Assembly: GCA_029856125.1 (NCBI GenBank)
Contig: JAHQWJ010000127.1
Span: 1-17,847, forward strand
Source of the DNA: Promethearchaeia archaeon
Lineage (GTDB): Archaea; Asgardarchaeota; Lokiarchaeia; Sigyniarchaeales; SOKP01
DNA: 17,847 nucleotides
Direction: 5' to 3'
Made by a program: the position numbers and the translations under genes. Below, piece after piece: positions 1,775-17,847 of the stretch. The notes under the pieces are model-generated. The model was not told where the DNA came from. It ran no database searches and saw only the letters and a list, made by a program, of their open reading frames with translations. How positions within the stretch are numbered: position 1 is the first letter of the stretch; each line of letters opens with the position of its first letter.

Positions 1775-3160
1775 CTATTTGTTCTTAATATTTCGGAAAT
1801 CAGGAATTATTTTTTGTAATCTGTCAATTAACTTTTCAAGTTCTACAAAGTCTTCTTTACTATTATCTAATTCTGAAATCAGATTATCAAAGTTTGTAGT
1901 AATGCTAATTTCAAAGGGATGATTGATTGCACTTATTCCTTTTAAAATATCGATAGAGAGATTTTCTATCTGATTCGTTAAATTTGAGATTTGGTTTGCT
2001 GAGGAATCAATTTTTTCTCGCGTGTCTGTGTCTAATTTAGATAGTTCGTATTGTTTATTAATGGATTCATTGAGATTATCCTTTATAGATTTAGAGAATT
2101 CACCGATACTATGTTCTAAAGATTCACTAATTTCACTTTTTAATAGTTCGCTGATCTCGTGGGTATTCGATTTTAATTCTTCTTGCCCTTCAAGACGTTT
2201 TTTTACGTATCCCTCAACCTTTTCTTTGTATTCCTCTAACCTTTCTTGAAATTTTAAGTCAATCCATTTTTCTACTTTCTCGAAGCCCATATTAATTGCG
2301 CCAATCATTTCTGATAGAGAATCATTTATTTTAGAAAGTCCTATTAAAGTTCCATCATTAAATTCCGTTGACCACATTTCTAATTCGGATTGATAATTAT
2401 TTAAGACTAAGCTAGATAAATTCTGTAATCCCTTTTTAAAACCATCTATAACTGGATTAATGTTAGGGTAATTTATGTCGATTTTCGTATCAGCTTGATC
2501 GATTGACATCGGAATTTCTTGAAGATCGCCTGGAATTCCTTCAATTGTCTCTAATTTCTCACGTATTATACTTGGATCCTTCGCCTGACCATATTCAACA
2601 AGCTCTCGAACCCATCTGAAGAATTCTAGGGATTTTGGCGGCTCAACTTCGTATTTCACTCTAACTATTCCGCTTTTTTCGCCTAATTTGTGATTTTTTA
2701 ATTGATATACTTCTAATCCTAATTGATCGGCTTTTTTAAGTTTAGTGTGATCAAATACAATTCCAAATGCTAAGGGGTTTTGTTCATTTTGAAAATATAA
2801 ATGGTTTTTTTTATCAACATCTGAAAAGAAAAATGAATCACTATTAGGGTGAGAATGATACCAACCTACAACAGTAATATTTTCATCTTTAACTTCTTCT
2901 TCTATCTGTTCAAGTGCTTTATGAATCTTTTCTGAAAATCCTAATTCTACTTGATCACCGTGTGTAATAGGAATAGCTTTGATCACGTCAATATCATCGC
3001 TGTCAGGTTTTTTATTGCCCAAACAAAACCCTAAAACCTGTTCATTGTCAAAAGGAATATTTGCAAATCTTAATGCATGAGTAAGAATGTCTTTATACAC
3101 ACTCATTCGTATAAACACTTTACCGTTTTCTCTGGTTTCAATTGCGCTCTCATTCATCAC
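1775..3160 (-). CDS. MPN/JAB (Mov34) domain protein with long C-terminal helical/coiled-coil region; catalytic Glu position appears to be Gln (MPN-B)
   Basis: VVGWYHSHPNSDSFFFSDVD (H102, H104, S113, D116). QVLGFCLG aligns with the EVMG-x-x-x-G strand of Rpn11/CSN5. The last ~230 aa are L/I/E/K/S-rich and helical. Start is GTG 3160 or ATG 3157, behind GGAGGT. Confidence 0.9.
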   Translation of the reverse strand: MMNESAIETRENGKVFIRMSVYKDILTHALRFANIPFDNEQVLGFCLGNKKPDSDDIDVIKAIPITHGDQVELGFSEKIHKALEQIEEEVKDENITVVGWYHSHPNSDSFFFSDVDKKNHLYFQNEQNPLAFGIVFDHTKLKKADQLGLEVYQLKNHKLGEKSGIVRVKYEVEPPKSLEFFRWVRELVEYGQAKDPSIIREKLETIEGIPGDLQEIPMSIDQADTKIDINYPNINPVIDGFKKGLQNLSSLVLNNYQSELEMWSTEFNDGTLIGLSKINDSLSEMIGAINMGFEKVEKWIDLKFQERLEEYKEKVEGYVKKRLEGQEELKSNTHEISELLKSEISESLEHSIGEFSKSIKDNLNESINKQYELSKLDTDTREKIDSSANQISNLTNQIENLSIDILKGISAINHPFEISITTNFDNLISELDNSKEDFVELEKLIDRLQKIIPDFRNIKNK

Positions 3161-4614
3161 TATTTATTACCTCCTTGTTCAAGTTCTTTGATTTTTAATA
3201 GTAATTCTTTTTTATCAGATTCCAATTTATCGATTTTTTCAAAGATGGGCGTTTTTGTACCTTCCAAAATTAATACCGCAGCTTTTAAGTTTGTTACAAA
3301 CTTTTGAGAATTCTTTTGTATATAACTAATTGAATTTTTCATTAAGCCATGCTTCTTCGAGGTAATATCTGAAGTTTCTTTTTGCATCTTTTTAATCTTT
3401 TCGAGTGTAGCGTCTTTTATCGAATTAATTTTATCCGATAAGGTATTTAACGAATTCTCTAATTTTTCAAGATTTTCGAGATTCTTAGTTAGATTTCCAT
3501 TGAGGTTCAGTATTTTATTGTTCCATTCGTCGTAATCTTTTGAGAAATCATTTTTCAGTGCTTCAAATTTCTCTTTAAATAAAATATTTAGTTTCTTCTG
3601 AACGAATTCTTCTATCTCTCCCAATATTTTTGCTATCTCATCATGATATTCATCAATTTGATCTAGAAAGTCGTCAACATAGCCTTCTGCGTTAAATAAT
3701 TCTGAATTTAAATCGTCTTTATATTTCCTCTGAATTTTATCAATTCCAACGTTCACTAAACTTTTTAATTGAATTAAGTTATCCCTGATTTCAACATTAT
3801 TATTCTCAATTTCTCCCGAAATGTTTTTTGCTATCGAATTTAAGTAGTTAATTAAGGGTGTTAAAGATAAATCTAAAAAATTAGCAAGGCCAACTTGAAC
3901 TGTTTCAACAATTTTATGTTGATCTATTTCAGGTTGTTTAAACCTTAATTGATTCAATTCTGGGACTTGAACATCACCAAAGATATCGGCTGTTTCATTT
4001 TCTTCTATAATAGGGGGCTCATTTGAATATACACCGTTAATCAGTTCTACAAGTTTAAAATAGTATTCTAGATCGTTAGGAGGCTCAACAATTGCCTTCA
4101 CATCGTGAACGCTCGAATCCCTAATATTTGTTGGGTCAGTTAACCTAATAGCTCTAAATCCCGGATCATCTGAACGTTCCAAATATGCGTGGTCAAAAAC
4201 TAATGCTATACCGCTTGGATTCAATTCATTTTGCCAACCGAATTGATTTTTTACATCTGTAGGCGAAAAGAAAATCTTGTGCTGGAAAAGATTAGGGTGA
4301 CTATGATACCACCCTACCATAAACCAGTTTTTTTCTAAATACATCGAATTAGCTTTTTCAAAGAAAATATAATCATTTATTGAAAATTCGACTTCTACAC
4401 TACTTCCGTGAGAGATAGGTACGGAATCTTCAATTATAACATTTTTAAATTTCTTATCTTCGCTCTCTTCGTGATGTCCAATGAGCACTCCCATCACTTC
4501 TATACACTGAGAATGAATTCTCGCCTTATTTCCAAAACGTAATACATGTAACACCATTTTATAATAAGCGAGTGGTTTAATCTTAACTACACTATTGTCT
4601 ACATCTTTTCCCAA
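3160..4614 (-). CDS. MPN+/JAMM metallo-isopeptidase-like protein with long C-terminal helical/coiled-coil region (MPN-A)
   Basis: VKIKPLAYYKMVLH...IEVMGVLIG (E39) and MVGWYHSHPNLFQHKIFFSPTD (H104, H106, S117, D120) resemble Rpn11/CSN5. TTG start is preceded by SD-like GAAGTGAT. The C-terminal ~250 aa are helical. Confidence 0.92.
   Translation of the reverse strand: MGKDVDNSVVKIKPLAYYKMVLHVLRFGNKARIHSQCIEVMGVLIGHHEESEDKKFKNVIIEDSVPISHGSSVEVEFSINDYIFFEKANSMYLEKNWFMVGWYHSHPNLFQHKIFFSPTDVKNQFGWQNELNPSGIALVFDHAYLERSDDPGFRAIRLTDPTNIRDSSVHDVKAIVEPPNDLEYYFKLVELINGVYSNEPPIIEENETADIFGDVQVPELNQLRFKQPEIDQHKIVETVQVGLANFLDLSLTPLINYLNSIAKNISGEIENNNVEIRDNLIQLKSLVNVGIDKIQRKYKDDLNSELFNAEGYVDDFLDQIDEYHDEIAKILGEIEEFVQKKLNILFKEKFEALKNDFSKDYDEWNNKILNLNGNLTKNLENLEKLENSLNTLSDKINSIKDATLEKIKKMQKETSDITSKKHGLMKNSISYIQKNSQKFVTNLKAAVLILEGTKTPIFEKIDKLESDKKELLLKIKELEQGGNK
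3169..3174 (-). promoter_or_regulatory. Shine-Dalgarno GGAGGT embedded in the last codons of MPN-A (translational coupling)
   Basis: The minus strand reads CAA GGA GGT AAT AAA TAG TG ATG. The TAG stop overlaps the GTG start by 1 nt. Confidence 0.75.
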
Positions 4615-5730: not shown

Positions 5731-6693
5731 ATGACTGTACTTATTCCCAAAAACGTTTATTTGACCATCGTTGCAGCATGTGTTAGGTATGCTAATAAAC
5801 GAATTGTTAAAGACGATTGGCTTGAGGTTTCTGGTATATTTATTGGAAGAAATGAAGGAAACGACGTATATATTACAAAATCATATCCAATAATGCATCA
5901 AAAACAACAAGAACAGCAAGAGAGCGTAATTGATCAATACAAGTGGTCTAAAGAAGATTATGAAGCTCTCTCTATTATTGATGACGAAGCCTTTTCAAAT
6001 GGTGAATTTACAGTAGGATGGTGGCATAGCCATCCTGGATTCAAGGTAATGATGTCCCATATTGATATCAAAACTACTCTGAGTTATCAAACTAATAATC
6101 CTCTCGCCGTTTCATTAGTATTTAATCCTGAAAGGTTAGTGAGACAAATTGAGCTTGCTGAAAAGAAAGGTGATCCGGTAAAACAACTTGAGGGCGATCC
6201 TGGATTTAAAATATTCAGACTAGATGACGTAAATAGAGGAATTCAAGCTTCTTATCACACTGCAGATTATATCATTAAAGGTTTTGATACTCCGGAACAA
6301 ATGGTAATGTTAACTCAGAAATTCTTAATTGATATTACTAACATGTTCCCAAAAGACAATTTATTTGAAACTTATGAAAAGTTCGTAAATAACAAAATTA
6401 ATGAGTTGAATTCACTTTTACAAGGTGTAGATGAATATCTATCTACTTTAACTCGAAAGGGAGAATCCCATAGAATACATGAAGTCCTTACTAATCAAAC
6501 TAGAGATATTAGAAAATTTATAGCTGAATCTTTCATTAAAATTGAGAATATTAGACAATTCATGAACTATCTAGAATACAAAGAAAGATCTACCATTGTT
6601 CCTAAAGTTGAAATAATTTTGGCTGAGTGGGACAGCACTGTTTCTCAATTAAACGCAAAACTCACAGCAATTACCAAAAAATATGCATTTTGA
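5731..6693 (+). CDS. MPN+/JAMM metallo-isopeptidase-like protein with shorter helical C-terminus (MPN-C)
   Basis: LEVSGIFIG (E32) and TVGWWHSHPGFKVMMSHID give a canonical E...H-x-H-x7-S-x2-D (H99, H101, S109, D112). About 130 aa of helical tail follow. Confidence 0.92.
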   Translation: MTVLIPKNVYLTIVAACVRYANKRIVKDDWLEVSGIFIGRNEGNDVYITKSYPIMHQKQQEQQESVIDQYKWSKEDYEALSIIDDEAFSNGEFTVGWWHSHPGFKVMMSHIDIKTTLSYQTNNPLAVSLVFNPERLVRQIELAEKKGDPVKQLEGDPGFKIFRLDDVNRGIQASYHTADYIIKGFDTPEQMVMLTQKFLIDITNMFPKDNLFETYEKFVNNKINELNSLLQGVDEYLSTLTRKGESHRIHEVLTNQTRDIRKFIAESFIKIENIRQFMNYLEYKERSTIVPKVEIILAEWDSTVSQLNAKLTAITKKYAF

Positions 6694-6822
6694 TTTACAT
6701 CCAATTTCTATATTTTCTTAAATTTTGCTATTCCTATTAATAATCTATTGTTTAAAGGGAAAATCTTTATTTTAATTATTCCCTTTTCTACTTTATAAAT
6801 TAAATAGCTAGATTCGATTATC

Positions 6823-9030
6823 ATGCGTAAAGTTCAATTTCCTTTTGTTGCTGTTTTAGGGCAAGAAAGAATGAAGCTCGGTCTTATTTTAAACGTTATC
6901 GATCCTCAAATTGGTGGAGTATTATTAACTGGACAACAGGGGACAGGTAAATCTACGGGAGTACGGTCTCTTGTAGAAGTGATGCCTAACATTGAAGTTG
7001 TTAAAGATTGTCAATTTTCTTGCGATCCTAAATCTCATATAGATGATCTCTGTGAAGAATGCCGCGTTAGAAAAGAAAATGGGGAGTTGGAAACGGAGTC
7101 TAAAGATATGCGACTAATTAACTTACCATTGGGAGTTACAGAAGATATGGTAACAGGTTCTCTTTCAATTGATAAGGTCTTAACCGAAGGAATCAGGAGT
7201 CTTCACCCTGGACTTCTCGCTAAGGCTAATCGTGGTATCCTTTATATTGATGAGATAAATTTGCTCCAAGATCATATAGTCGATACCTTACTAGATGCTT
7301 CTGCTTCTGGTGTGAATATTATTGAAAGAGAAGGTATTTCGGTTATGCATCCTTCTCGGTTTATATTAGTCGGTTCGATGAATCCCGAGGAAGGCGATCT
7401 TCGCCCACAAATAGCTGACAGACTCGGTTTAGAGGTAAAAATAAAAGCACCAAGGGATGCAAAGCTACGCGCTGAAATTACGAAGAGAGTGATTGATTTT
7501 GATGATAATCCTAAAGCATTCATAAAAAAATACGAGCAAGAGCAAGAAGAATTAAGAAAAAAAATCGTAAAGGCGCGTGAATTAATTAAAGATGTCAAAA
7601 TTCCATCATCGGTTTACGAATTTGTATCTAGGTTAGTTAACGAATTGGATATTTTTTCGCAGAGAGCAGACATTACGTTTATTCGGTGTGCTAGATCTCA
7701 CGCTGCTTTTAGTGGAAGAACCGAAGTTGTGGAAGAAGATTTAAACGCTGCAATGGATTTAGTTTTCGAGCACAGAATCAAGTCGCTTCATTACGAAATG
7801 ACGCCAGAAGAAGTTAAAGCTAAAATTGTTGAAGTATACGGAAAGATTCAAAAAGCGTACGAAGATCCAAAAACTTACCGGCCAAATAAAGATACCGAGG
7901 GACCTTTAAAACACGATGATACACCTCAAAAAGAATTTAAACGTCAATCAGTTGATCCTAAAAAAGTTGATATCCCGGAAACAAAAGAACAGAAGTTACC
8001 TGCACCCAAATACCCAGATAATAAGAAAAGAAACCCTTCGCCTGCTGGTGGATGGAAAGTAAAAGATATTCCAGAATACGACGAACGCGAATTCAATTTC
8101 TTTGAGAATGGGGTTGATTCATTGCCATTAATTTATCAGATGGAAACCAAAATGACTTCCGTTTTGGATACCATCAGAAAAGATCGAAAAGTTTCCGATT
8201 ATGGCGGTAGAGGGATTGGAAGACGCATAAAAATCGCTTCTTCTCAAAAAGGTCGGTATGTATCGTATAGAAGACCGATCAATCGACCCAAAACTATTGC
8301 TCTCGACGCAACCATCCGGAATTATTTAAAAAATACTATATACAATCAAACAGATATTGAATTTCCAATTAAATTTGACAAGTACGATCTAATGGATAAA
8401 ATTTACGAGTATCGAGCTCCTTTAGTACTATTCTTTGTTCTCGATTCTTCAGCTTCGATGTATTATGTAATCAATCAAATGACAAATGTTATTCTTTCCC
8501 TCCAGCGAGAAGGTTACAGAAAAAAGGATAAGTTAAGTTTGATTATTTTTAGAGCGAAAGAAGCAGTTGTTCTTCAGAAACCTACTGTGTATTTTAAATC
8601 TGCTGTAAACAAACTCAAAAAAGTCCAAGGAAAATCCTATACTCCTATGGCCGCAGCTTTGACAAAATGCTTAAAATTAATTGTCGCTGAAAAACTAAAG
8701 AATAGAAACATAATTCCGGTCGTTTTCGTTTGTAGCGATTTAGGAGCAAATATTTCCTACAAATACCCAGATTTAATCGCTCAGGTTCAATCAGATTACA
8801 CTCTAGTCGTTAACGAATTAAAAGCTCTAACAAAACAACTATCGAAAAAAGGAGCGCATATGGTGGTGTTAGAGCCTAAGAAATCTTACGCTACTAGAGC
8901 ATTGGGTGTTAATACATTTGCGGCTAACAAAATAAAAAAGAATTTTAAAAAGTATGGAAACGCTGAGGTATTTCAATTCGATCGCGTAAATCCCAAAAAC
9001 TTAATTCTCGAACTGAAAAAAATACTTTAA
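6823..9030 (+). CDS. Magnesium/cobalt chelatase I/D-family AAA+ ATPase with C-terminal vWA domain
   Basis: FPFVAVLGQERMKLGLILNVIDPQIGGVLL, Walker A GQQGTGKST (6931-6957), Walker B ILYIDE and EREGIS...HPSRFILVGSMNPEEGDLRPQ are ChlI/BchI signatures. A Pro/charged linker follows, then the vWA MIDAS motif DSSAS (8443-8457) with TP and SD elements. Confidence 0.93.
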   Translation: MRKVQFPFVAVLGQERMKLGLILNVIDPQIGGVLLTGQQGTGKSTGVRSLVEVMPNIEVVKDCQFSCDPKSHIDDLCEECRVRKENGELETESKDMRLINLPLGVTEDMVTGSLSIDKVLTEGIRSLHPGLLAKANRGILYIDEINLLQDHIVDTLLDASASGVNIIEREGISVMHPSRFILVGSMNPEEGDLRPQIADRLGLEVKIKAPRDAKLRAEITKRVIDFDDNPKAFIKKYEQEQEELRKKIVKARELIKDVKIPSSVYEFVSRLVNELDIFSQRADITFIRCARSHAAFSGRTEVVEEDLNAAMDLVFEHRIKSLHYEMTPEEVKAKIVEVYGKIQKAYEDPKTYRPNKDTEGPLKHDDTPQKEFKRQSVDPKKVDIPETKEQKLPAPKYPDNKKRNPSPAGGWKVKDIPEYDEREFNFFENGVDSLPLIYQMETKMTSVLDTIRKDRKVSDYGGRGIGRRIKIASSQKGRYVSYRRPINRPKTIALDATIRNYLKNTIYNQTDIEFPIKFDKYDLMDKIYEYRAPLVLFFVLDSSASMYYVINQMTNVILSLQREGYRKKDKLSLIIFRAKEAVVLQKPTVYFKSAVNKLKKVQGKSYTPMAAALTKCLKLIVAEKLKNRNIIPVVFVCSDLGANISYKYPDLIAQVQSDYTLVVNELKALTKQLSKKGAHMVVLEPKKSYATRALGVNTFAANKIKKNFKKYGNAEVFQFDRVNPKNLILELKKIL

Positions 9031-9074
9031 ATTTATAACTAACTTCTTAAAGTTCTTATATTATTATTCAATTA

Positions 9075-10322
9075 ATGGATAACAAAGAAAATTCTGTCTT
9101 AGTTGCTGGATTTAACACTCGCCCTTTAGTTTATTCTTTACACAGAGCAGGATATGATGTGTATGCTGTTGATTTCTTTGGTGACTCAGACTTTTATCCA
9201 TATATTAAAGATTGCTTAATTCTTACCAAAAAATTAAGCGTAAACTATGATTTAGCAAAAAATAATTATAGTGAATACCTCCCTCTCTTAATTTTAGAGC
9301 TATTAGATACTTATCCTAAAATAAAGTATTTAATAATTGGAAGTGGTTTAGATGATGCTATCGAAGAGAGAACCCTTATTTTAAAAGATATTAATAGAAA
9401 GAAGTACAAAATTCTTAACCTTAATAACGAAATTGAAGTGATTAAGAAAAGCAGAAATACAGAATTCATTTTCAATTTGTTAAAAAAATTTGGTTACGAT
9501 GTTCCAAGAACAGTTTCCTTCCACGAAGTTAGGTCAAAAGTTAACGAGTTAGAATACCCACTTATATTAAAGAAAAAGAGTGGTTCTGGTGGAACAAATG
9601 TGTATAAAATACAGAATGAATCTGATCTCACCTTTTACATCAACCTAATCAGTAGAGAAAGCTTTGATCCAGAAGATTGGTTGATTCAGGAATATCTTGA
9701 AGGGAATCCCGTAAGTTGTACGACAATCTCTAACGGAGTAGAAAGCGAATTAATTACTGTAAATCATCAGATAATCGGAGATAAATATCTTAACGCTCCA
9801 AAAGAATTTATGTATTGTGGCAATGTGGTTCCTGCTAACGTAATTGCAGAAGAAAGGAAACTGATAGTTGACATTTCATTGAAATTATCTACCGAGTTAG
9901 GTTTAAAGGGAATAAATGGATTCGATTTTGTGTTAAGAAACCATTATCCATATTTAATAGAGATCAATCCCCGAATTCCAGGATCAATAAGAGCTTCTGA
10001 AGAGGCAATGAACATAAATTTATTAGATTTGCATATAAAAAGTTTTACAGAGAAAGGATGGGAACTCGTCAAAAAGACGCTAAAGGATGCGAAAATCGAA
10101 AATTTTACGACCAAGATGATTTTCTTTGCACCTAAAGAAATCGATAAAAACCTAATAAATAAAATTAACGACCTGGAATATGTTCACGATAAGTCTGAAC
10201 CAGTCAAAAACATTTATAAAAACGAACCAGTTTGCACTATTTTATTTAAGGCTAAATTTTTTCCTGATTCTTATCTGGGTAGTTTAAGAATAGTAGATAA
10301 GATAAAAAAGATAATTAAATAG
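9075..10322 (+). CDS. ATP-grasp domain ligase (COG2232-like archaeal carboligase family)
   Basis: N-terminal VLVAGFNTRP...YAVDFFGD; YPLILKKKSGSGG; LIQEYLEG; GINGFDFV; YLIEINPR. Confidence 0.88.
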   Translation: MDNKENSVLVAGFNTRPLVYSLHRAGYDVYAVDFFGDSDFYPYIKDCLILTKKLSVNYDLAKNNYSEYLPLLILELLDTYPKIKYLIIGSGLDDAIEERTLILKDINRKKYKILNLNNEIEVIKKSRNTEFIFNLLKKFGYDVPRTVSFHEVRSKVNELEYPLILKKKSGSGGTNVYKIQNESDLTFYINLISRESFDPEDWLIQEYLEGNPVSCTTISNGVESELITVNHQIIGDKYLNAPKEFMYCGNVVPANVIAEERKLIVDISLKLSTELGLKGINGFDFVLRNHYPYLIEINPRIPGSIRASEEAMNINLLDLHIKSFTEKGWELVKKTLKDAKIENFTTKMIFFAPKEIDKNLINKINDLEYVHDKSEPVKNIYKNEPVCTILFKAKFFPDSYLGSLRIVDKIKKIIK

Positions 10323-10330
10323 CCTAAAGA

Positions 10331-11080
10331 TTATTGTTTAATAATCGTTTTGATTTTTGCTATATAGCTTCTGAGGATTTTCTCGTCTCCTTCGGCCACA
10401 GCGATTGCGAGTATCCTCCTCTCATCTAATTCGTGGATAATAATCGAACCGTGATCTCCTCCAATTATCGAGAATTCTAAACCTCCATCCAATAAGACTC
10501 CTGCTAAATTATAAATAGCGGAGATCATTGCGGATATAGTTGGTTCTGGCATAGTAGATTGAACTTTAATAGGTAAGCCATCTTTGGTGATGATGGCAAT
10601 CACTAGAGCATTAGGGATTGCTCTTTTAAGAGCCACAAAGATTTCTTCCTTGATAAGATCACTCGTCTCAATAATTGCTGACATTTTTATAGCGAACTTT
10701 CTTAGTGATCGTATGTAAAAATCTAACCCTTCAAGTTCAGCTAATTCTCTATCTAAATAGGCGATTAGGGCCATATAATCAGTAAGGATTGATAAAATAA
10801 TTCTTTCTTTCCCTGTTATTAAAGTATAAGCGATTTTTTGGTTTAGTGAATCGTGTAACATTTTAGAAGATAAGAAAACTAAACTACTACTCGCTGCAGA
10901 AATTTCAGTTTTAGTCATTACTATGTCTTCTTTTAATTCACTTACAATAGGTGTACCATCATGAGAGGAAATGGAAATACCTAGAAGGCTTTCTTGATCT
11001 TTGATTTCTTTTTTTAATAATTCTGATAATTCTTGATTTAGTAGTTCTATATTGACTTCCTTAGACATAGAAATCTTCAA
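10331..11080 (-). CDS. Tandem (double) Roadblock/LC7 domain protein
   Basis: Two copies of the Roadblock pattern: ISISSHDGTPIVS...ISAASSSL and IAIITKDGLPIKV...ISAMISAI...IIGGDHGSIIIHEL. Start is TTG 11080 or ATG 11068. Confidence 0.85.
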   Translation of the reverse strand: MKISMSKEVNIELLNQELSELLKKEIKDQESLLGISISSHDGTPIVSELKEDIVMTKTEISAASSSLVFLSSKMLHDSLNQKIAYTLITGKERIILSILTDYMALIAYLDRELAELEGLDFYIRSLRKFAIKMSAIIETSDLIKEEIFVALKRAIPNALVIAIITKDGLPIKVQSTMPEPTISAMISAIYNLAGVLLDGGLEFSIIGGDHGSIIIHELDERRILAIAVAEGDEKILRSYIAKIKTIIKQ

Positions 11081-11142
11081 ATTCTTTAAGTTTTAAATAT
11101 TAACATTATAGTAAAATGAATCAAATTTAAACATATACTTTT

Positions 11143-11970
11143 ATGAAACTCAGAAATAATGCCTATGTAATAATATTGGCAGCGGGAAAAGCGACGAGGC
11201 TGAGACCATTATCTGATCAAATTCCCAAACCACTAATCAAAATCAATGGAATTCCGATGATTACTCGTATTGTATCTAACTTTAAACAGGCAGGCTATAG
11301 TAAATTTATTGTATTAGTAGGGTATAAACAAGAGTTAATTAGAGCAGAACTATTAAAAATTCAAGATATTGAATTACAAATCATTGGGCAGGTTAAACAA
11401 GTGGGATCAGCTGACGCCCTCTTGCTTTGCCTTGACCAATTTAATGATCTCAAATCTTCGGGATTAACATTTTTTGTAACTGCAGCAGATATTATCTTTT
11501 TCAAAAAAGAATTCAATTTAATGCATTTATTATATCATAATTCTAAGGCAGATATAATCTTGAGTTTGATTAAATCAAAAGATCAAGACATTGCTCGCGG
11601 ACACGGAAATGTCAAAATTTCTAAGAATTCAGATATTATTAACGATTCAGATTCAAAACTAGGATTAGAAATTACAGACATTATAGAAAAACCAAGAAAA
11701 GATCAAATTTTAAGCGATTATTACTCGTTTCCGCTCTATATTTTCAATCAAACAATTATTAAATATTTAACAGATATTGATATATCTACTCGGGGAGAGG
11801 TTGAGATTCAAGGTGCAATTAAGAAATCTATTCTGAATGGATATCGAGTGAAAGGTATAAAAATAATTGATCCGGATATAACATTTGAGAACGTAGGCAG
11901 ATATCATATAACCTACTTAAATGATATAGAAAAAATGAATGAAAGATTTCGAGAAATTGAAAGTAGATAA
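11143..11970 (+). CDS. Sugar-phosphate nucleotidyltransferase (NTP_transferase, RmlA/GlmU-N-like), no LbH domain
   Basis: ILAAGKATRLRPLSDQIPKPL signature; IIEKP; STRGEVEI, which resembles RmlA SxRGELEI. Substrate is not assignable. Confidence 0.88.
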   Translation: MKLRNNAYVIILAAGKATRLRPLSDQIPKPLIKINGIPMITRIVSNFKQAGYSKFIVLVGYKQELIRAELLKIQDIELQIIGQVKQVGSADALLLCLDQFNDLKSSGLTFFVTAADIIFFKKEFNLMHLLYHNSKADIILSLIKSKDQDIARGHGNVKISKNSDIINDSDSKLGLEITDIIEKPRKDQILSDYYSFPLYIFNQTIIKYLTDIDISTRGEVEIQGAIKKSILNGYRVKGIKIIDPDITFENVGRYHITYLNDIEKMNERFREIESR

Positions 11971-12126
11971 AAATTTAAGTGGATTGATTCTATTAAGTAA
12001 GTTTCTCTATTCAAATTCCCTTCTCTTAAATGGAATAAAAATAGCGATTACCTAAGAATTAAAAAGGATTTATTTTATTATATTTCTTAATATATAAAGA
12101 AAATTCAAGTTTTTTGGGATCTAAAA

Positions 12127-13017
12127 ATGGAAGAAGACGACAGGGACAGAATTATTCGTGAATTACGGGAAGAATTGAAAAAAGTTATTAAAAAATTCGA
12201 GAATTACAACATTATAATAAAGAGCAAAGAGGACCTTATAAATAATTTAACCAGATCTTTGGACTTAAAAGAAGATCAGATCAAAACAATGATAGACTCT
12301 ATGAATTTAAAAGAACAGCACAACGACACGTTAAATACTTCATTGCAAATAAAGAACGAGAAAATTAAAGATTTGGAAAAGAATATTAGATCTCTAAATG
12401 AAGAAATTAACCTATTAAAATCCTCTACTGTTGATAAAGATATTATTGCTGAGAAAGAAAGTGATTTAGAAGAATGTCAGAATAAACTGGTCATTTTAAA
12501 GGGAGAGTTAGAAAAACAAGAAGAAGATCTTGATTTGTTAGATGCAGAAAACGAAAAATTAAGAAATGACCTTGCTTCGAGTTCAGACCCTCAAATCGTT
12601 GATTGGACGCATGTAGAAATTCCTAAAGAATCTATATTAAAAAAAATTCGAAAGATTCTCTCTAAAGCTGTTCATAACGTAACTATTGCCGTCCCCGACA
12701 TTAAAGATTTACAAGATCTGCACTTATATGAAGTACGGTCTTCTGTAAATATGAAAATTATGTGTTATATCGATCCCAGTCTTGAGGATGACGAACAACT
12801 TTTGATGGAGTTTGAAAGTTTGGACAATATCTCAATTCGGCTATACGAAGATCGAGATAGATACTTAATCGATCGCGACGGGGAGGAACTTTTGTTTGGA
12901 ATAATTGGAGAAGGAGAGAATAACAATTTAATAATTCACACTCAAGATGCGAAGCATCAAAGATTACTACGAAGTCTCGTTATGGAAGGATGGCTACGAG
13001 CAAGAAAATTAGATTGA
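12127..13017 (+). CDS. Coiled-coil protein with C-terminal TrmB-effector/PLD-like alpha/beta domain lacking HKD
   Basis: Residues 1-150 are heptad-rich. Residues ~165-296 (IRKILSKAVHNVTIAVP...ISIRLY...LIDRDGEELLF...EGWLRARKL) follow the TrmB-C/PLD-fold pattern by eye, with no HxKxxxxD motif. Confidence 0.7.
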   Translation: MEEDDRDRIIRELREELKKVIKKFENYNIIIKSKEDLINNLTRSLDLKEDQIKTMIDSMNLKEQHNDTLNTSLQIKNEKIKDLEKNIRSLNEEINLLKSSTVDKDIIAEKESDLEECQNKLVILKGELEKQEEDLDLLDAENEKLRNDLASSSDPQIVDWTHVEIPKESILKKIRKILSKAVHNVTIAVPDIKDLQDLHLYEVRSSVNMKIMCYIDPSLEDDEQLLMEFESLDNISIRLYEDRDRYLIDRDGEELLFGIIGEGENNNLIIHTQDAKHQRLLRSLVMEGWLRARKLD

Positions 13018-13042
13018 TATGACCCCAAAACCTAATATTGAA

Positions 13043-13903
13043 TTATATTTCGATAAAGGATCTGTTTCTTTTTCTATAATGTGCAAAATGAGTAAAGCCA
13101 ATATTTTTTAACATTTTTGTTATGCTCTTAAATTCGTAAGCCACTTCGATCGGTTTGTGAGCATCTGAACCTAATAAAATAGGAATATCTAACTCGTAAA
13201 TTTTTTTTATAATGTCTATACTAGGATATTGTTCCTTAACTTTTTTTCTCAAACCACTTGTATTGATTTCTATAGTAAGATCATGTTTTTTTACCAACTC
13301 AAGAGTTTCGATTACTTTTCCCATTACCTTATCTTTATCTTCAATACCTTTATCAAATTTTTTTGGTAAATCGAAATGGGTGACAATATCTAATTCAAAT
13401 GTCGGTGATTTAATCATAACTTGCAACGAATCATAGTATTCTAGATAGATTTCATCGTTAACATCATATTCTTTATATTTATTTAAGAAACGCCCGTCGT
13501 CAAAAGCAAATATGCCCGCTTTTCCAAAGAGAACATGAACAGAGCCTAAAATGTAATCCAATTTAGCCATATAATTTTTTAGATATTTGTTGAGTACGTG
13601 ATCTTGATGTTTGAAGAAATCAATCTCGAATGCAGACCTCACGTGTATTTGATTCACGTATTTCTCTTTTAGTTTGTCTAATTGAAGGATATAACTTTCC
13701 AACTTATTTGTGGGCATCGCATAACCTTCATACGGAATATCTTTAAGAGATGGAATTTCTGAACTTAAATATTCATAAGGAAAATGATCGCTAATTCCTA
13801 TAACATTTAGATCGAGTTCAATGGCCTTTTTTATGTAATCTTCGATAGTACCAACAGCATGCTTACAAAGCGAGTTATGAGTATGCCAGTCTTCATATTG
13901 CAT
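13043..13903 (-). CDS. hisK: Histidinol-phosphatase, PHP family (HisJ/HisK type)
   Basis: DWHTHNSLCKHAVG, ISDHFP, FEID, LGSVH, THFDLPK, EINTSGLRK and LGSDAH motifs. No other his genes are adjacent, so the substrate is inferred from the family. Confidence 0.85.
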   Translation of the reverse strand: MQYEDWHTHNSLCKHAVGTIEDYIKKAIELDLNVIGISDHFPYEYLSSEIPSLKDIPYEGYAMPTNKLESYILQLDKLKEKYVNQIHVRSAFEIDFFKHQDHVLNKYLKNYMAKLDYILGSVHVLFGKAGIFAFDDGRFLNKYKEYDVNDEIYLEYYDSLQVMIKSPTFELDIVTHFDLPKKFDKGIEDKDKVMGKVIETLELVKKHDLTIEINTSGLRKKVKEQYPSIDIIKKIYELDIPILLGSDAHKPIEVAYEFKSITKMLKNIGFTHFAHYRKRNRSFIEI

Positions 13904-14160
13904 TTTAAAACGAGCTTAATATTAATGGTATTATTCTAATATTTGATATAATTAATTTAATTAGATAAAATTTTTGTTGAATTACTTTTAGAGGGAAATT
14001 GAATGGAATTACCCAAAATCAAGGAATTGATTAAGAATTTTTTTTTAAAATTTGGATAAATATCTAATATTATCTTAATATTAAATTCATAAGGCATAAT
14101 TTTTTAAGAACGAAAAAGAATTTAGATACTTACTACAAGCAATTTTTTAATAATTTTTTA

Positions 14161-17100
14161 ATGGGTGAGAATAAGTTGAGTACTATAAAAAAATCAAATT
14201 TAAATATTAATGATCTATTCAAATCAGATGAAAAAATAACCTTCTTAGTTGGAGCTGGAGCTTCAGTTGATTCTCCATCCCAATTACCTTCAGCTAGTAA
14301 TATAATGAAAGCACTAATTAAATTCACATGTACGAAATCTGAGGTTGAAAAAATCGTAAACACTCAAGGTTTAAACTTTGAAACTTTATTAGGAATAATA
14401 CATAACTCGCTCAATGATGATTTACAATTTTTAGATTTTTATTTGGAAATCAACAAGCCTAATATCCAACATTTTGTTTTAAGTGAAATGCTCCAAAAAG
14501 GACATTATGTTATAACTACAAACTTTGATTTTTTAATAGAGCACGCTCTACTTCAGACAGACTATCCTAAAAAAAAAATAGTCCCAGTTATTACTGAAAA
14601 AGATTACCAAAAGTTCAGTGATCCAGAGAAGTTGTATAAAAATAAAAAAATTCCAATTTACAAACTTCACAGCTCTCCTAAAAATATTATCACCGGAGAA
14701 GATACCCGTAATTCTTTTATTAACACCTTAAAGCTAATTGGATCAAATCGAGATAAAAACAATATCATTCAATTAGAGCCGTTCAAAGCTCAAATGTTTG
14801 AACAGATTTCAAATGAACGATCCCTGATAATTATTGGTTACTCGGGTAAAAATGATTACGATCTTATTTCAACTCTTAAGACTATGAGGGGATTGAAAAA
14901 CTTGATTTGGATTAATCATATTGTCAATGGTGAACCAAAGGGGGTCCTATATGAATATAGCAAACCAAGGAGCATGGATTTAAGCAATTTAGATGGTTTA
15001 GATCAGCACCTTACAGAAATTAAAAGATTAAATGAATCCGTTAATGTATTTCGGTTAAATACTTATACACCTAAATTTCTTGAGAATCTTTTAGATAAAA
15101 AAGAGAAAATCAGTAAAGAAAAATTTGAATTGAATTTAGGCGATTGGCTTAAGGATAAACTTAATGAACCATCTGAATTAACCAAACTTTTTATTTCTAA
15201 TAAGATTTATTCTGAAACCAAGAATTACGTCGACGCTCTCAGGTGTTTGGAAAGCTTATATAGGTTAAGTGACGAATCTGGAGATAGTCATTGGAAAGCA
15301 ATATCTCTAATGGAAATGGGGATTGTTAACTATAAACAATCCAAATACGGTGACGCATTAGATCAGCTACGTAAATCTCTACAAGTTCAAATTAAATCGA
15401 AATTAATGCCGGAACGAGCTTTGATTTTTAAATACATAGGTCTTTCGCATCAAGCACTTAGAGAATATTCAGATGCTATAAAAAATTTTGAGTTCGCACT
15501 GAAAGAAAATGAAAAAATTAAAGACTTTCAACAAAAGTCGGATGTATACAACAATCTAGGCGTACTTTATCAAGAACAACATAAGTATAAAGACGCTTTG
15601 ATGTATTTCGAATCAGCAATAAAAATTAACGAGAGATTCGAAAATCTTAGTAAGAAAGCGTTAAATTTAAAGCTTAAAGGGAGAGTCTATCATTCAAAAA
15701 AAAATTTTAGCGAAGCTTTAAAGAACCTTCAAATTGCATTAAAAATTTCCGAACAATTAGAAGATCTCGAGCAAAAAGCAGAGATTTTGAATATTATTGG
15801 ACGAATAACTCATGAATTTGGAGACTCTCTAACTGGATTGGAGAAATGTAATGAATCACTTAATCTTTACAATCTTTTGGGGGGAATTGAAGGAACACTA
15901 GATGCTTTAAACACTATAGGAATCATATATAGGGATCAATGGAATTACTCCAAAGCTTTTGATTACTTTGAAGAGGGATTTCAAACTGCCGAGAATTTAG
16001 GAAATATTCAATTAAAGGCCAGATTTTCGCGCCAATTAGGGATGATTTTTCAGAATCAGAATAAGTATTTTGAAGCACTTAAATGGTTTGAAGATTCTTT
16101 AAACTTTTATAAGCAGATTGGTGTAATTAGAGGAGAGGTTGATGTTCTTATAAATATGGGGTTAATATACAAGGAACAAAAAACTTATTTAAAAGCGTTA
16201 AAGAATTTTGGGAAAGCTCTGGAAATTTATGATCAATTAGAAGATTTAAACAATAAGGCATCCACTTTGAATATTCTTGGACGGATATATCTTGATCAAA
16301 GAAAATTCTCAGAAGCATTTAAAAACTTCCAGGAGGCTCTTCAGCTTTACGGGGAAACTGATAATCCTGAGGGGACAGTTGAGACTTTAAAAAACATTGG
16401 GAACCTCTATGCTGAACAAGCTAATTTTCAAGAGGCACTAAACAGATATAAAGATGCTCTAGAAATTATTAAAGGCATTGGAAAAACAGAAAAAAAAGCT
16501 GATCTTCTAAACAGGCTAGGATTGATTTTTCAAGATCAGGGGGACTATCCTCAAGCTAAACAGAAATTCGAAGAAGCATTAAATCTCTATAGAAAACAGA
16601 ACAATATGGAAGGACAAATTGAAAGTCTTCATTTAATTGGAATAAATTATCATTATGTAGAAGAAAATGATATAGCTTTAAAGACATTTGAAGAAGCTAT
16701 AAATATCGCTGAACAAATCGGTAACTTACATAAGAAAGCAATGTGCTTAAACATAACTGGTAAGATCTATCGAGAACAATGGAATCTCGTAGAGGCTTTA
16801 AAGCGCTACGAAGAGGCTCTATCGATTGCAGAACAACTAGGGCATTTAGAAGAACAAGTTGAAATTCTTAGCGTGATCGGAGAAATTTATCAAGCTCAGA
16901 AGCATTATCCAGAAGCAGTAAGGAGATATAACGAAGCAATATATGTCGCAGAAAGTTTAGGAAACCTTGAAATTAAAGCCGATATCTTTACGAGCATAGG
17001 GGATATCTATTACGATGAGGATAATTATCTTGAAGCCTTAAACTTATACGAAGAAGCTTTAAATATCGACGATCAACTTGGAAATATGAAGGGCAAGGCG

Positions 17101-17847
17101 TATAGGCTACTTTGCATTGGAAAGATATTTTTTATCCGTAATAAATACAATGAAACATTGGATAGATACAAAGAAGCTCTAGAGCTTGAGGAACAATTAG
17201 GTAATCTTACAAACCAAGCGGTTATGATACGAATGATTGGAGATATTTTTAAAGCTCAAGAGCATTTTCAAGAAGCATTAAAATGGTATCAAGATGCATA
17301 CAAGCTTTTTGAAGAAATTGAAAACTTGGAAGGAATTGCAGATTGCTTTGAGAGTATTGGATTAGTGTATCAAGAATTAGGTAATTATCCTGAAGCATTA
17401 AAGTGGAATAGTGAAGCACTTAAATTATCAGATCAAATTTATGACGACGAGAGGAAAGCTCGAATTTTATGCAGTATAGGCGCACTCTTTCATAAACAAG
17501 GTGTATATAAAGATGCCTTTAAACGTTATAATATTGCCCTCAACATATTTGATAGAATAGGAGACTTAATAGGGAAAACATATTGTTTAAATAAGGTAGG
17601 TCTTGTATACCAAGATAGAGGGGATTATACGGAAGCTCTTAAATGGTACGATCGAGGAACAAAACTTTTTAAAGTATTAGGACCTTCAAAAGAAAGAGCA
17701 GAGAATTTGTATAATACAGCAATGATCTATAGGGATCAAGGATTATATCTTGACGCTTTGAAAACCTTTGAAGAATCTCTCAATATTGATAATGAGCTTA
17801 AAAATTTCACCAGAAAAGCAGAAAGTCTTAATAACATTGGATTAATT
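14161..17847 (+). CDS. Large SIR2-like (SIR2_2) domain + tetratricopeptide-repeat protein, C-terminus truncated by the window edge
   Basis: Frame open from ATG 14161 (or TTG 14176 behind GGTGAG) to the window end, 1229 codons. Motifs: TFLVGAGAS (GAGAS at 14251-14265), TTNFD (14515-14529), YKLHSS (to 14676), IIGYSG (GYSG at 14836-14847), LIWINH, then TPR repeats. Not in the ORF track. Confidence 0.92.
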   Translation, partial: MGENKLSTIKKSNLNINDLFKSDEKITFLVGAGASVDSPSQLPSASNIMKALIKFTCTKSEVEKIVNTQGLNFETLLGIIHNSLNDDLQFLDFYLEINKPNIQHFVLSEMLQKGHYVITTNFDFLIEHALLQTDYPKKKIVPVITEKDYQKFSDPEKLYKNKKIPIYKLHSSPKNIITGEDTRNSFINTLKLIGSNRDKNNIIQLEPFKAQMFEQISNERSLIIIGYSGKNDYDLISTLKTMRGLKNLIWINHIVNGEPKGVLYEYSKPRSMDLSNLDGLDQHLTEIKRLNESVNVFRLNTYTPKFLENLLDKKEKISKEKFELNLGDWLKDKLNEPSELTKLFISNKIYSETKNYVDALRCLESLYRLSDESGDSHWKAISLMEMGIVNYKQSKYGDALDQLRKSLQVQIKSKLMPERALIFKYIGLSHQALREYSDAIKNFEFALKENEKIKDFQQKSDVYNNLGVLYQEQHKYKDALMYFESAIKINERFENLSKKALNLKLKGRVYHSKKNFSEALKNLQIALKISEQLEDLEQKAEILNIIGRITHEFGDSLTGLEKCNESLNLYNLLGGIEGTLDALNTIGIIYRDQWNYSKAFDYFEEGFQTAENLGNIQLKARFSRQLGMIFQNQNKYFEALKWFEDSLNFYKQIGVIRGEVDVLINMGLIYKEQKTYLKALKNFGKALEIYDQLEDLNNKASTLNILGRIYLDQRKFSEAFKNFQEALQLYGETDNPEGTVETLKNIGNLYAEQANFQEALNRYKDALEIIKGIGKTEKKADLLNRLGLIFQDQGDYPQAKQKFEEALNLYRKQNNMEGQIESLHLIGINYHYVEENDIALKTFEEAINIAEQIGNLHKKAMCLNITGKIYREQWNLVEALKRYEEALSIAEQLGHLEEQVEILSVIGEIYQAQKHYPEAVRRYNEAIYVAESLGNLEIKADIFTSIGDIYYDEDNYLEALNLYEEALNIDDQLGNMKGKAYRLLCIGKIFFIRNKYNETLDRYKEALELEEQLGNLTNQAVMIRMIGDIFKAQEHFQEALKWYQDAYKLFEEIENLEGIADCFESIGLVYQELGNYPEALKWNSEALKLSDQIYDDERKARILCSIGALFHKQGVYKDAFKRYNIALNIFDRIGDLIGKTYCLNKVGLVYQDRGDYTEALKWYDRGTKLFKVLGPSKERAENLYNTAMIYRDQGLYLDALKTFEESLNIDNELKNFTRKAESLNNIGLI
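15181..17847 (+). repeat. Coding array of at least 22 TPR-like units at an exact 120-nt (40-aa) period
   Basis: Consensus xxLNxIGxIYxxQxxYxEAL-xxYEEALxIxEQLGxxxxKA. The (E/D)AL-like motif recurs every 120 nt from 15232 to 17760 without indels. Units are divergent at DNA level. Confidence 0.9.

What the first reader, a model, noticed from the sequence alone, without database searches (positions are those of the whole stretch)
14161..17847. Giant SIR2-TPR protein: candidate stand-alone NAD+-depleting immune or signalling receptor without an NTPase module
Seen: an N-terminal SIR2_2-type domain (~residues 25-310, no zinc-binding Cys motif) joined directly to at least 22 TPRs, with no P-loop in between. 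Established: SIR2 domains of this class are NADase effectors in Thoeris ThsA, DSR1/DSR2, SIR2-HerA and Avs systems, and TPRs serve as pattern sensors in Avs. Inference: the TPR solenoid binds a viral or cellular ligand and switches on the SIR2 domain. The housekeeping-like neighbourhood also allows a non-defence signalling role. The C-terminus is unseen.
Basis: partly seen in the sequence, partly recalled or inferred. Interest (0 to 1): 0.7.

Follow-up and report, generated by a model that had tools for sequence, protein, structure and literature searches.

The report
Chromosomally fixed Asgard SIR2-TPR giant protein
This Asgard-archaeal gene joins an intact immune-type, NAD-cleaving SIR2 enzyme head to a rigid coil of 25 protein-binding repeats with no ATPase, but it is inherited like an ordinary chromosomal gene, not like a mobile antiviral gene, so its role is open.

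Summary
ORF 14161-17847(+) encodes a SIR2_2 domain (residues ~1-335; GAGAS, TTNFD, KLHSS, GYSG; no CxxC, no Walker A). It is followed directly by 40-aa TPR units, 22.3 of them before the contig ends.

Orthologues show the whole protein is about 1356 aa: SIR2 plus exactly 25 x 40-aa TPRs plus a 20-aa tail, with no further domain. The SIR2 model (pLDDT 87) matches defence-type SIR2 NADases (SPARSA, ThsA, KomC, DSR2; Z 17-20) better than sirtuins (Z 12.8).

The antiviral reading is only partly supported:
- The gene is a positional orthologue, found in 31 of 32 sampled genomes of its genus. A 1196-aa form sits at the same locus in a sister genus.
- It has housekeeping-type neighbours and forms one clade.
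- dN/dS is 0.05-0.23, like its neighbours.
- The TPR array has no indels in 17 aligned full-length orthologues, and it is as conserved as the enzyme domain.

It belongs to a large, publicly uncharacterised SIR2-TPR family whose named members are all Asgard, with 1-13 copies per genome.

Best reading: a partner-gated NAD+-consuming switch with DSR2-like logic that binds a conserved ligand. Whether it serves immunity or regulation is undecided.

This scan noted the same gene before on other DNA; one earlier follow-up reached the same conclusion.

The parts
14161..17847 (+). SIR2-TPR gene, 1229 codons, cut by the contig end; about 127 codons are missing by comparison with 1349-1356-aa orthologues
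14161..15165 (+). SIR2_2 (SIRim-type) domain, residues 1-335
   Evidence: Pfam PF13289. AF2 model pLDDT 87.4, pTM 0.88. Foldseek and VIA top matches are SPARSA Sir2, ThsA, KomC and DSR2.
14251..14265 (+). GAGAS, the Rossmann NAD-binding loop (residues 31-35); G31, A32, G33 and S35 are invariant in the family
14515..14529 (+). TTNFD (residues 119-123). N121 and D123 are invariant and align with TTNFD of SPARSA Sir2 and TQNID of Sir2Tm.
14662..14676 (+). KLHSS (residues 168-172); the family consensus is KIHGS. H170 is invariant and is the predicted catalytic His.
14836..14856 (+). GYSGKND (residues 226-232), a conserved SIR2_2 motif
15169..17847 (+). TPR array in a strict 40-aa register, two helices of 17-18 residues per unit. 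22.3 units lie in the window; orthologues have 25 units plus a 20-aa tail.
13904..14160 (.). AT-rich 257-bp intergenic spacer between the divergent PHP gene and the SIR2-TPR gene. In many relatives an alpha/beta-hydrolase gene (202-273 aa) sits between the PHP gene and the SIR2-TPR gene.

Best explanation
The gene encodes the first 1229 of about 1356 residues of an Asgard (Promethearchaeota/Loki-type) protein. The protein has an N-terminal SIRim-type SIR2 domain and a rigid solenoid of 25 x 40-aa TPRs. It has no NTPase and no other domain.

Shown here:
- The fold and its intact Asn/Asp/His positions.
- The exact repeat architecture.
- The gene is a vertically inherited, positionally fixed, single-copy orthologue in its genus. 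A version four units shorter sits at the same locus in a sister genus.
- It is under ordinary purifying selection.
- It is nested in a large SIR2-TPR paralogue family whose named members are all Asgard.

Inferred mechanism: the SIR2 head consumes NAD+, as a glycohydrolase or perhaps an ADP-ribosyl transferase. It is kept off until the TPR solenoid binds a specific protein partner or oligomerises. This is the same sensor-effector logic as the NTPase-free bacterial DSR2.

Each repeat is individually conserved and the array tolerates no indels. The partner is therefore predicted to be conserved: a cellular protein or state, or an invariant feature of a virus, not a fast-changing target. The output would be local or global NAD+ depletion, or ADP-ribose signalling, serving growth arrest, dormancy or abortive infection.
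For: Fold and motifs:
- Pfam SIR2_2 above cut-off, plus TPR_12.
- AF2 model pLDDT 87.4. VIA Z: 19.8 SPARSA Sir2, 18.2 SeThsA, 17.9 KomC, 17.4 DSR2, 14.6 Avs5, 13.9 FAM118B, 12.8 SIRT3. Foldseek E about 1e-6 to the same set.
- G31/A32/G33/S35, N121, D123 and H170 are invariant in 24 family members and 16 orthologues. The profile alignment places TTNFD on the TTNFD of SPARSA Sir2 and the TQNID of Sir2Tm.
- No Walker A and no CxxC.

Inheritance:
- Full-length orthologues of 1349-1356 aa have the same neighbours in about 20 species. The same holds in three divergent congeners and two genomes of a sister genus.
- Found in 31 of 32 genus genomes.
- All 20 syntenic copies fall in one clade (SH-aLRT 94). 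The 4 other rows of that clade look like fragments of the same orthologue.

Selection and architecture:
- No indels between residues 372 and 1356 in 17 orthologues.
- The same repeat is 68% identical across orthologues, against 30% between repeats within one protein.
- Mean pairwise identity is 68% for TPR and 66% for SIR2.
- dN/dS is 0.10-0.21 (SIR2) and 0.05-0.23 (TPR). The neighbouring ATP-grasp, PHP and coiled-coil genes give 0.12-0.19.
- TPR helices are modelled at pLDDT 80-94.
Against: - No enzymatic, binding or expression data exist for any member. Public names are only 'tetratricopeptide repeat protein' or 'SIR2 family protein'.
- The gating step is inferred by analogy. The full-length model gives no reliable interdomain geometry: pTM is 0.53 and the SIR2 part is poorly modelled in that run.
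- Gly171 of the usual HG motif is Ser in this clade (KLHSS). Its effect is unknown.
- No conserved operon partner points to a ligand. The gene lies between divergent and convergent neighbours.
- Conservation alone does not separate a conserved immune sentinel from a housekeeping regulator.
Confidence: 0.55

Rival explanations
1. A classical antiviral abortive-infection receptor. The TPR solenoid recognises a viral protein and releases the NADase, as DSR2 does with the phage tail tube. This gene is one member of an Asgard innate immune repertoire.
For: - The SIR2 fold is closest to defence NADases.
- The architecture (SIR2 plus helical repeats, no NTPase) parallels DSR2.
- The family is paralogue-rich, with 1-13 copies per genome.
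- Sensor parts vary across the family: TPR arrays of many lengths, LRR in P0031/P0049/P0058, and an N-terminal DUF4062 in P0015/P0023/P0024. This is typical of conflict systems.
- An earlier scan report describes a mobile 1835-aa member.
Against: - For this gene the locus is fixed across two genera.
- It is present in 31 of 32 genus genomes.
- dN/dS equals that of its neighbours, and the sensor part is as conserved as the enzyme.
- The array has no indels in the 17 aligned orthologues.
- Neighbours are PHP, MBL-fold, PAP2 and ATP-grasp genes, with no defence genes.
- No PADLOC system model matches beyond weak SIR2-domain hits of at most 27 bits.
- TPR positions that map by motif offset to the ligand-facing helix-A positions of canonical TPRs are no more variable than exposed helix-B positions (my reading of the table).
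Confidence: 0.2
2. A housekeeping or regulatory NAD+-dependent protein-modifying enzyme. The SIR2 head deacylates or ADP-ribosylates cellular proteins that the TPR platform recruits, with no role in immunity.
For: - Core-gene-like inheritance and selection.
- Repeat-specific residues are conserved, as expected for fixed cellular partners.
- Both copies in this genome sit among metabolic genes.
Against: - The domain lacks the sirtuin Zn module.
- It is structurally nearer to NAD+ glycohydrolases of defence systems than to deacylases.
- The family was found in only a few of the 30 families sampled in the phylum. A general housekeeping role is therefore unlikely.
Confidence: 0.2
3. A catalytically silent scaffold. 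The SIR2 fold serves only as a nucleotide-binding or oligomerisation module on a large TPR platform.
For: The HG motif is changed to HS in this clade. The TPR array is the larger and slightly better conserved part.
Against: N121, D123, H170 and the GAGxS loop are invariant under purifying selection across orthologues down to 42-54% identity. That is hard to explain without catalysis or at least NAD+ binding.
Confidence: 0.05

Closest known systems
DSR2 (defence-associated sirtuin 2, Bacillus subtilis)
   Same: Both have an N-terminal SIRim-type SIR2 NADase fold (Z 17.4, rmsd 3.3-3.6 over about 245-250 residues). In both it is fused in one chain to a long C-terminal helical-repeat region with no NTPase, in a protein of about 1000-1350 aa. 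This is the best model for how the window's protein may work.
   Different: There is no sequence-level membership: no DSR model in PADLOC reached E 0.01. The structural alignment shows 16-18% identity. Here the repeat part is a regular 25 x 40-aa TPR array. The gene is vertically inherited and syntenic, not defence-island-borne. No trigger is known.
SIR2-APAZ of short-pAgo SPARSA systems; Thoeris ThsA; Kongming KomC
   Same: These give the best structural matches to the SIR2 head: Z 19.8, 18.2 and 17.9. The best sequence-profile hit in the PDB is SPARSA Sir2 at E 5.5e-4, with a shared TTNFD motif.
   Different: The window's protein has no APAZ, SLOG or Macro domain. No pAgo, TIR (ThsB) or KomA/B partner genes lie in the window or in syntenic loci.
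Avs5 and other SIR2-STAND/NLR-like proteins (SIR2-NTPase-TPR)
   Same: A SIR2 effector plus a TPR sensor in one chain. Z is 14.6 to Avs5.
   Different: The defining STAND NTPase is absent: there is no Walker A and no NB-ARC or NACHT hit.
SIRim subfamily including human FAM118A/B (SIRanc), bioRxiv 10.1101/2024.09.18.613514
   Same: The same SIR2 subfamily in the structural sense: Z 13.9 to the FAM118B filament. That paper notes SIRim fusions to TPR-like and NACHT domains in eukaryotes, and a conserved chromosomal SIRim gene that acts in immunity.
   Different: That paper included Asgard genomes but does not describe this SIR2-TPR family. The relation to the eukaryotic SIRim clades was not tested here.

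Membership tests
SIR2_2 / SIRim-type SIR2 superfamily | Match to the family profile above the curated threshold | tested here: met
   PF13289 at 30.3 bits against a cut-off of 24.5. The Atlas nearest clusters are all SIR2_2.
SIR2_2 / SIRim-type SIR2 superfamily | Rossmann GAGxS loop and catalytic Asn/Asp (TxNxD) and His | tested here: met
   G31/A32/G33/S35, N121, D123 and H170 are invariant. TTNFD aligns to SPARSA Sir2 and Sir2Tm.
SIR2_2 / SIRim-type SIR2 superfamily | Fold closer to defence NADases than to Zn-containing sirtuins; no Cys4 Zn module | tested here: met
   Z 17-20 against 12.8. No CxxC motif.
SIR2_2 / SIRim-type SIR2 superfamily | NAD+ hydrolysis | not testable with these tools
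   Needs an enzyme assay.
DSR2 | Sequence membership (profile match over SIR2 and the C-terminal sensor) | tested here: not met
   The PADLOC scan lists only TPR models, Aga_SIR2 (27 bits), PDC-S39/S65 and a generic SIR2 model. No DSR model reached E 0.01.
DSR2 | One chain with N-terminal SIR2 plus a helical-repeat sensor and no NTPase | tested here: met
DSR2 | Activation by a phage structural protein; anti-phage protection | not testable with these tools
   Needs experiments.
Avs / STAND NTPase receptors | Central STAND P-loop NTPase | tested here: not met
   No Walker A motif. No NB-ARC, NACHT or AAA Pfam hit at E 0.01.
Thoeris (ThsA/ThsB) | SLOG or Macro sensor domain on ThsA and an adjacent TIR gene | tested here: not met
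   Only SIR2_2 and TPR families were found in the protein. Neighbours are PHP, coiled-coil, MBL and PAP2 genes.
SPARSA (short pAgo with SIR2-APAZ) | APAZ domain and an adjacent short pAgo | tested here: not met
   Weak Aga_SIR2 hits cover the SIR2 residues 85-170 only. No Argonaute gene lies in the window or in syntenic loci.
TPR repeat proteins (TPR_12-like 40-aa units) | Repeated helix-turn-helix units matching TPR profiles | tested here: met
   TPR_12 E 4.5e-116 in 14 stretches. 25 units in strict register. Paired 17-18-residue helices at pLDDT 80-94.
Mobile defence-island gene (operational class) | Patchy presence, variable location, defence-gene neighbours | tested here: not met
   Found in 31 of 32 genus genomes. 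The locus is fixed in about 25 species. No defence neighbours.

The most novel reading that the evidence does not exclude
An immune-type SIR2 NADase has been fixed as a lineage-wide chromosomal gene in Loki-type Asgard archaea. Its exact 25-repeat TPR superhelix acts as a guard for a conserved cellular protein or process. If so, it would be an archaeal example of a germline-fixed, NTPase-free NAD+-depleting sentinel, and the surrounding Asgard SIR2-TPR/LRR family would be a prokaryotic precursor-like repertoire of the SIRim-repeat receptors seen in eukaryotes.
Probability: 0.15. Interest if true: 0.8.

Novelty: new variant of a known kind. Interest (0 to 1): 0.5.

Why it matters
SIR2 NADases are known as effectors of mobile bacterial antiviral systems. 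Here the same enzyme class, fused to a sensor-like TPR solenoid without the usual NTPase switch, behaves as a stable chromosomal gene in the closest archaeal relatives of eukaryotes. It belongs to a large family found here almost only in Asgard archaea, for which I found no functional study.

If the head is an active, partner-gated NADase, it offers a simple one-protein model for how immune-type NAD+ depletion becomes domesticated. The parallel is vertebrate FAM118/SIRanc. The strictly conserved 25-repeat array gives a defined target for partner discovery.

If it is inactive or housekeeping, that warns against reading every SIR2_2-repeat fusion as a defence gene.

Tried and rejected
- Missing C-terminus within the same assembly. 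No contig end overlaps the last 20-40 bases of the window. The only TPR-bearing contig-end ORF (C106, 416 aa) is 24% identical and is a different gene. The end was inferred from orthologues instead.
- Single-sequence search of PDB sequences with the SIR2 domain gave nothing meaningful.
- A profile that included full-length members was swamped by TPR proteins. A SIR2-only alignment built from DNA references (A2) solved this.
- DNA-level tandem repeats as the cause of the contig break or of recent repeat expansion: none were found.
- Defence context of the short paralogue on C142: its neighbours are serine dehydratase, DHH, GH130, GT1 and HSP20 genes.
- The full-length AF2 model (residues 1-1200) was meant to show SIR2-TPR docking. 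The TPR part is confident, but the SIR2 part is poor with the shallow orthologue-only alignment (pTM 0.53), so no interdomain conclusion was drawn.
- Literature. Full-text searches for Asgard + SIR2 (+ TPR) found no description of this family. The Upx/Avs2 paper is relevant only as another NTPase-free single-protein sensor.
- Possibly disrupted copies: L009 is split into 993 + 281 aa and L020 is 1235 aa. They come from contigs with 8.7x and 2.2x coverage, so they were not taken as evidence of pseudogenisation.
Full report
OBSERVATION

The window is an entire 17,847-bp contig (C127) of a 3.69-Mb, 153-contig, roughly 30% GC MAG. ORF 14161-17847(+) has 1229 codons and runs off the contig end.

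- Pfam gives SIR2_2 above threshold (30.3 bits against a cut-off of 24.5) on residues 117-232. It gives massive TPR matches from about residue 345 onward (TPR_12 E 4.5e-116, 14 stretches).
- The motifs are GAGAS (31-35), TTNFD (119-123), KLHSS (168-172) and GYSGKND (226-232).
- There is no CxxC and no Walker A motif. No STAND or AAA family appears at E 0.01.

WHOSE GENE, AND THE MISSING END

Every named homologue comes from Asgard archaea: Promethearchaeota/Lokiarchaeota, and a few MAGs labelled Thor-, Hod-, Hermod-, Hel-, Sigyn- or Odinarchaeota. They are annotated only as 'tetratricopeptide repeat protein' or 'SIR2 family protein'.

A scan of one genome per species returned 22 loci. In about 20 of them the gene is full length at 1349-1356 aa, with 54-87% identity. 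Its neighbours match those in the window:
- Zn-ribbon protein
- JAB/MPN
- Mg-chelatase-like AAA-VWA
- ATP-grasp
- Roadblock/LC7
- nucleotidyl transferase (in some loci)
- coiled-coil protein
- PHP on the opposite strand, followed by SIR2-TPR

An alpha/beta-hydrolase gene is sometimes inserted just upstream. Downstream lie an unknown 279-aa gene, an MBL-fold gene and a PAP2 gene. The orthologues are TPR to the end, so the window's copy lacks only about 127 residues and no further domain.

ANATOMY

Seventeen full-length orthologues align with no gap anywhere between residues 372 and 1356. Written in rows of 40, residues 337-1336 form 25 units in strict register, followed by a 20-residue tail. 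AlphaFold2 models each unit as two helices of 17-18 residues at pLDDT 80-94.

The repeats are old and individually constrained:
- The same unit in different species is 68% identical on average.
- Different units within one protein are 30% identical.
- There is no DNA-level tandem repeat.
- Several positions vary between units but are conserved across orthologues. This is what a fixed, unit-specific binding or packing surface would give.

THE ENZYME HEAD

A model of residues 1-340 (pLDDT 87.4, pTM 0.88) matches defence-type SIR2 domains best.

| Match | VIA Z |
|---|---|
| SPARSA Sir2-APAZ | 19.8 |
| SeThsA | 18.2 |
| KomC | 17.9 |
| DSR2 | 17.4 |
| PsSIR2 / SIR2-HerA complex (8w9l, 8wld) | ~15.7 |
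| Avs5 | 14.6 |
| FAM118B | 13.9 |
| SIRT3 | 12.8 |

These Z values are; Foldseek agrees. A SIR2-only profile hits SPARSA Sir2 (E 5.5e-4) and Sir2Tm (E 0.012) in the PDB. It aligns TTNFD with their TTNFD and TQNID.

G31/A32/G33/S35, N121, D123 and H170 are invariant in the family and in the orthologues. The Gly after the His is Ser in this clade. I infer an NAD+-binding and probably NAD+-consuming enzyme. Activity itself cannot be tested here.

EVOLUTIONARY BEHAVIOUR

Distribution:
- In the window's own genus, the long form (open frames of about 1250-1414 aa, 38-85% identity in the SIR2 part, or fragments cut by contig ends) was found in 31 of 32 sampled genomes. The exception is 86% complete.
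- Three divergent congeners and two genomes of a sister genus carry it at the same locus.
- The sister-genus form is 1196 aa. It is shorter by about 160 residues, that is four units, at the C-terminal end. It still has no indel between residues 260 and 1178 at 42% identity.

Phylogeny: in a tree of 206 SIR2 domains, all 20 syntenic copies fall in one clade (SH-aLRT 94). The only other four rows in that clade look like fragments of the same orthologue: three are named 'partial' by NCBI and one is identical to a syntenic copy. The clade is nested among 700-800-aa paralogues.

Selection:
- Pairwise dN/dS is 0.10-0.21 for the SIR2 part and 0.05-0.23 for the TPR part.
- The neighbouring ATP-grasp, PHP and coiled-coil genes give 0.12-0.19, and AAA-VWA gives 0.045.
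- Mean pairwise identity is 66% for SIR2 and 68% for TPR.

The wider family varies more:
- It has 1-13 copies per genome.
- Repeat lengths differ widely.
- Some members carry LRRs or an N-terminal DUF4062.
- It is concentrated in one family and order of the phylum: 61 of 68 and 5 of 7 genomes. It is sporadic elsewhere and was not found in most other families sampled.
- This genome has one short paralogue (C142, about 726-741 aa, 45% identity in the SIR2 part), also among metabolic genes.

INTERPRETATION

The architecture and the fold argue for a sensor-effector NADase of the DSR2 type. The population behaviour of this particular gene argues against a mobile, arms-race antiviral receptor.

I therefore commit to a partner-gated NAD+-consuming switch whose TPR solenoid binds a conserved ligand (confidence 0.55).
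- The anatomy and inheritance are shown.
- Catalysis, gating and the nature of the ligand are inferred.

Three rivals remain:
- Classical antiviral sensor (0.2). It is supported by the fold and by the family's diversity, and opposed by synteny and selection.
- Protein-modifying housekeeping enzyme (0.2).
- Inert scaffold (0.05).

COMPARISON AND NOVELTY

DSR2 is the closest known system in logic. The protein is not a DSR2 family member by sequence. It also fails the defining features of Avs/STAND, Thoeris and SPARSA.

Full-text searches found no description of an Asgard SIR2-TPR family. The SIRim paper (bioRxiv 10.1101/2024.09.18.613514) included Asgard genomes and mentions SIRim-TPR-like fusions only in eukaryotes. 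I class the finding as a new variant of a known kind.

EARLIER NOTES IN THIS SCAN

Within this scan the same orthologue was noted by first readers in at least eight other genomes.
- An earlier follow-up (e1-4409667) concluded, as I do independently, that a 1352-residue, 25-repeat member is inherited like an ordinary chromosomal gene.
- Another report (e1-2678745) described the family as found almost only in Asgard archaea and mostly among housekeeping genes.
- A third (e1-5604955) found a mobile 1835-aa member.

SCORES

Interest is 0.5. The family is real, uncharacterised and in a lineage of high evolutionary interest. Its conservation pattern is unexpected for this enzyme class. But the function is untested and the finding repeats one already made in the scan.

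Noticed in passing
window 1775-3160(-), 3160-4614(-), 5731-6693(+): Three JAB/MPN-domain proteins, two of them with C-terminal extensions of about 300 aa that look coiled-coil by eye. They cluster next to a Zn-ribbon protein and the AAA-VWA gene. The block is syntenic across the genus. The function of this MPN cluster is unknown.
   Followed up: no
window 6823-9030(+): A 735-aa Mg-chelatase-like AAA+ / AAA-lid / VWA protein is far more conserved than its neighbours: 94-96% aa identity and dN/dS about 0.045, against 0.12-0.19 for the neighbours. In several relatives it appears as two ORFs: 197 + 487-535 aa in L011, L013 and L021, about 345 + 345 aa in L029, and 296 + 348 aa in L030. This could be a recurrent split, an intervening element or an assembly error.
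   Followed up: no
between PHP and SIR2-TPR: L004:9099-9905, L010:2128-2856, L013:9255-9863; absent at window 13904-14160: An alpha/beta-hydrolase gene of 202-273 aa is present in many species and absent in others, including the window, just upstream of the SIR2-TPR gene. It is the only variable element seen here between the PHP and SIR2-TPR genes.
   Followed up: partly
window 14161-17847 compared with window 5731-13903: Synonymous divergence of the SIR2-TPR gene to its closest orthologues (dS 0.34-0.45) is lower than that of the flanking genes (0.49-0.65 for the same genome pairs). The cause is unexplained; it may be codon or mRNA-level constraint in the repeat region.
   Followed up: no
window 10331-11080(-): A 249-aa Roadblock/LC7-domain protein of the MglB-like type is conserved at 85-96% identity across the closer orthologous loci.
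   Followed up: no
proteins P0031, P0049, P0058 (LRR); P0015, P0023, P0024 (DUF4062 N-terminal, SIR2 at about 485-815); P0155 (3154 aa, two SIR2-like regions): Family members in other Asgard MAGs swap the TPR array for leucine-rich repeats, add an N-terminal DUF4062 region, or carry two SIR2 domains. This modular variation contrasts with the frozen architecture of the window's orthologue.
   Followed up: partly
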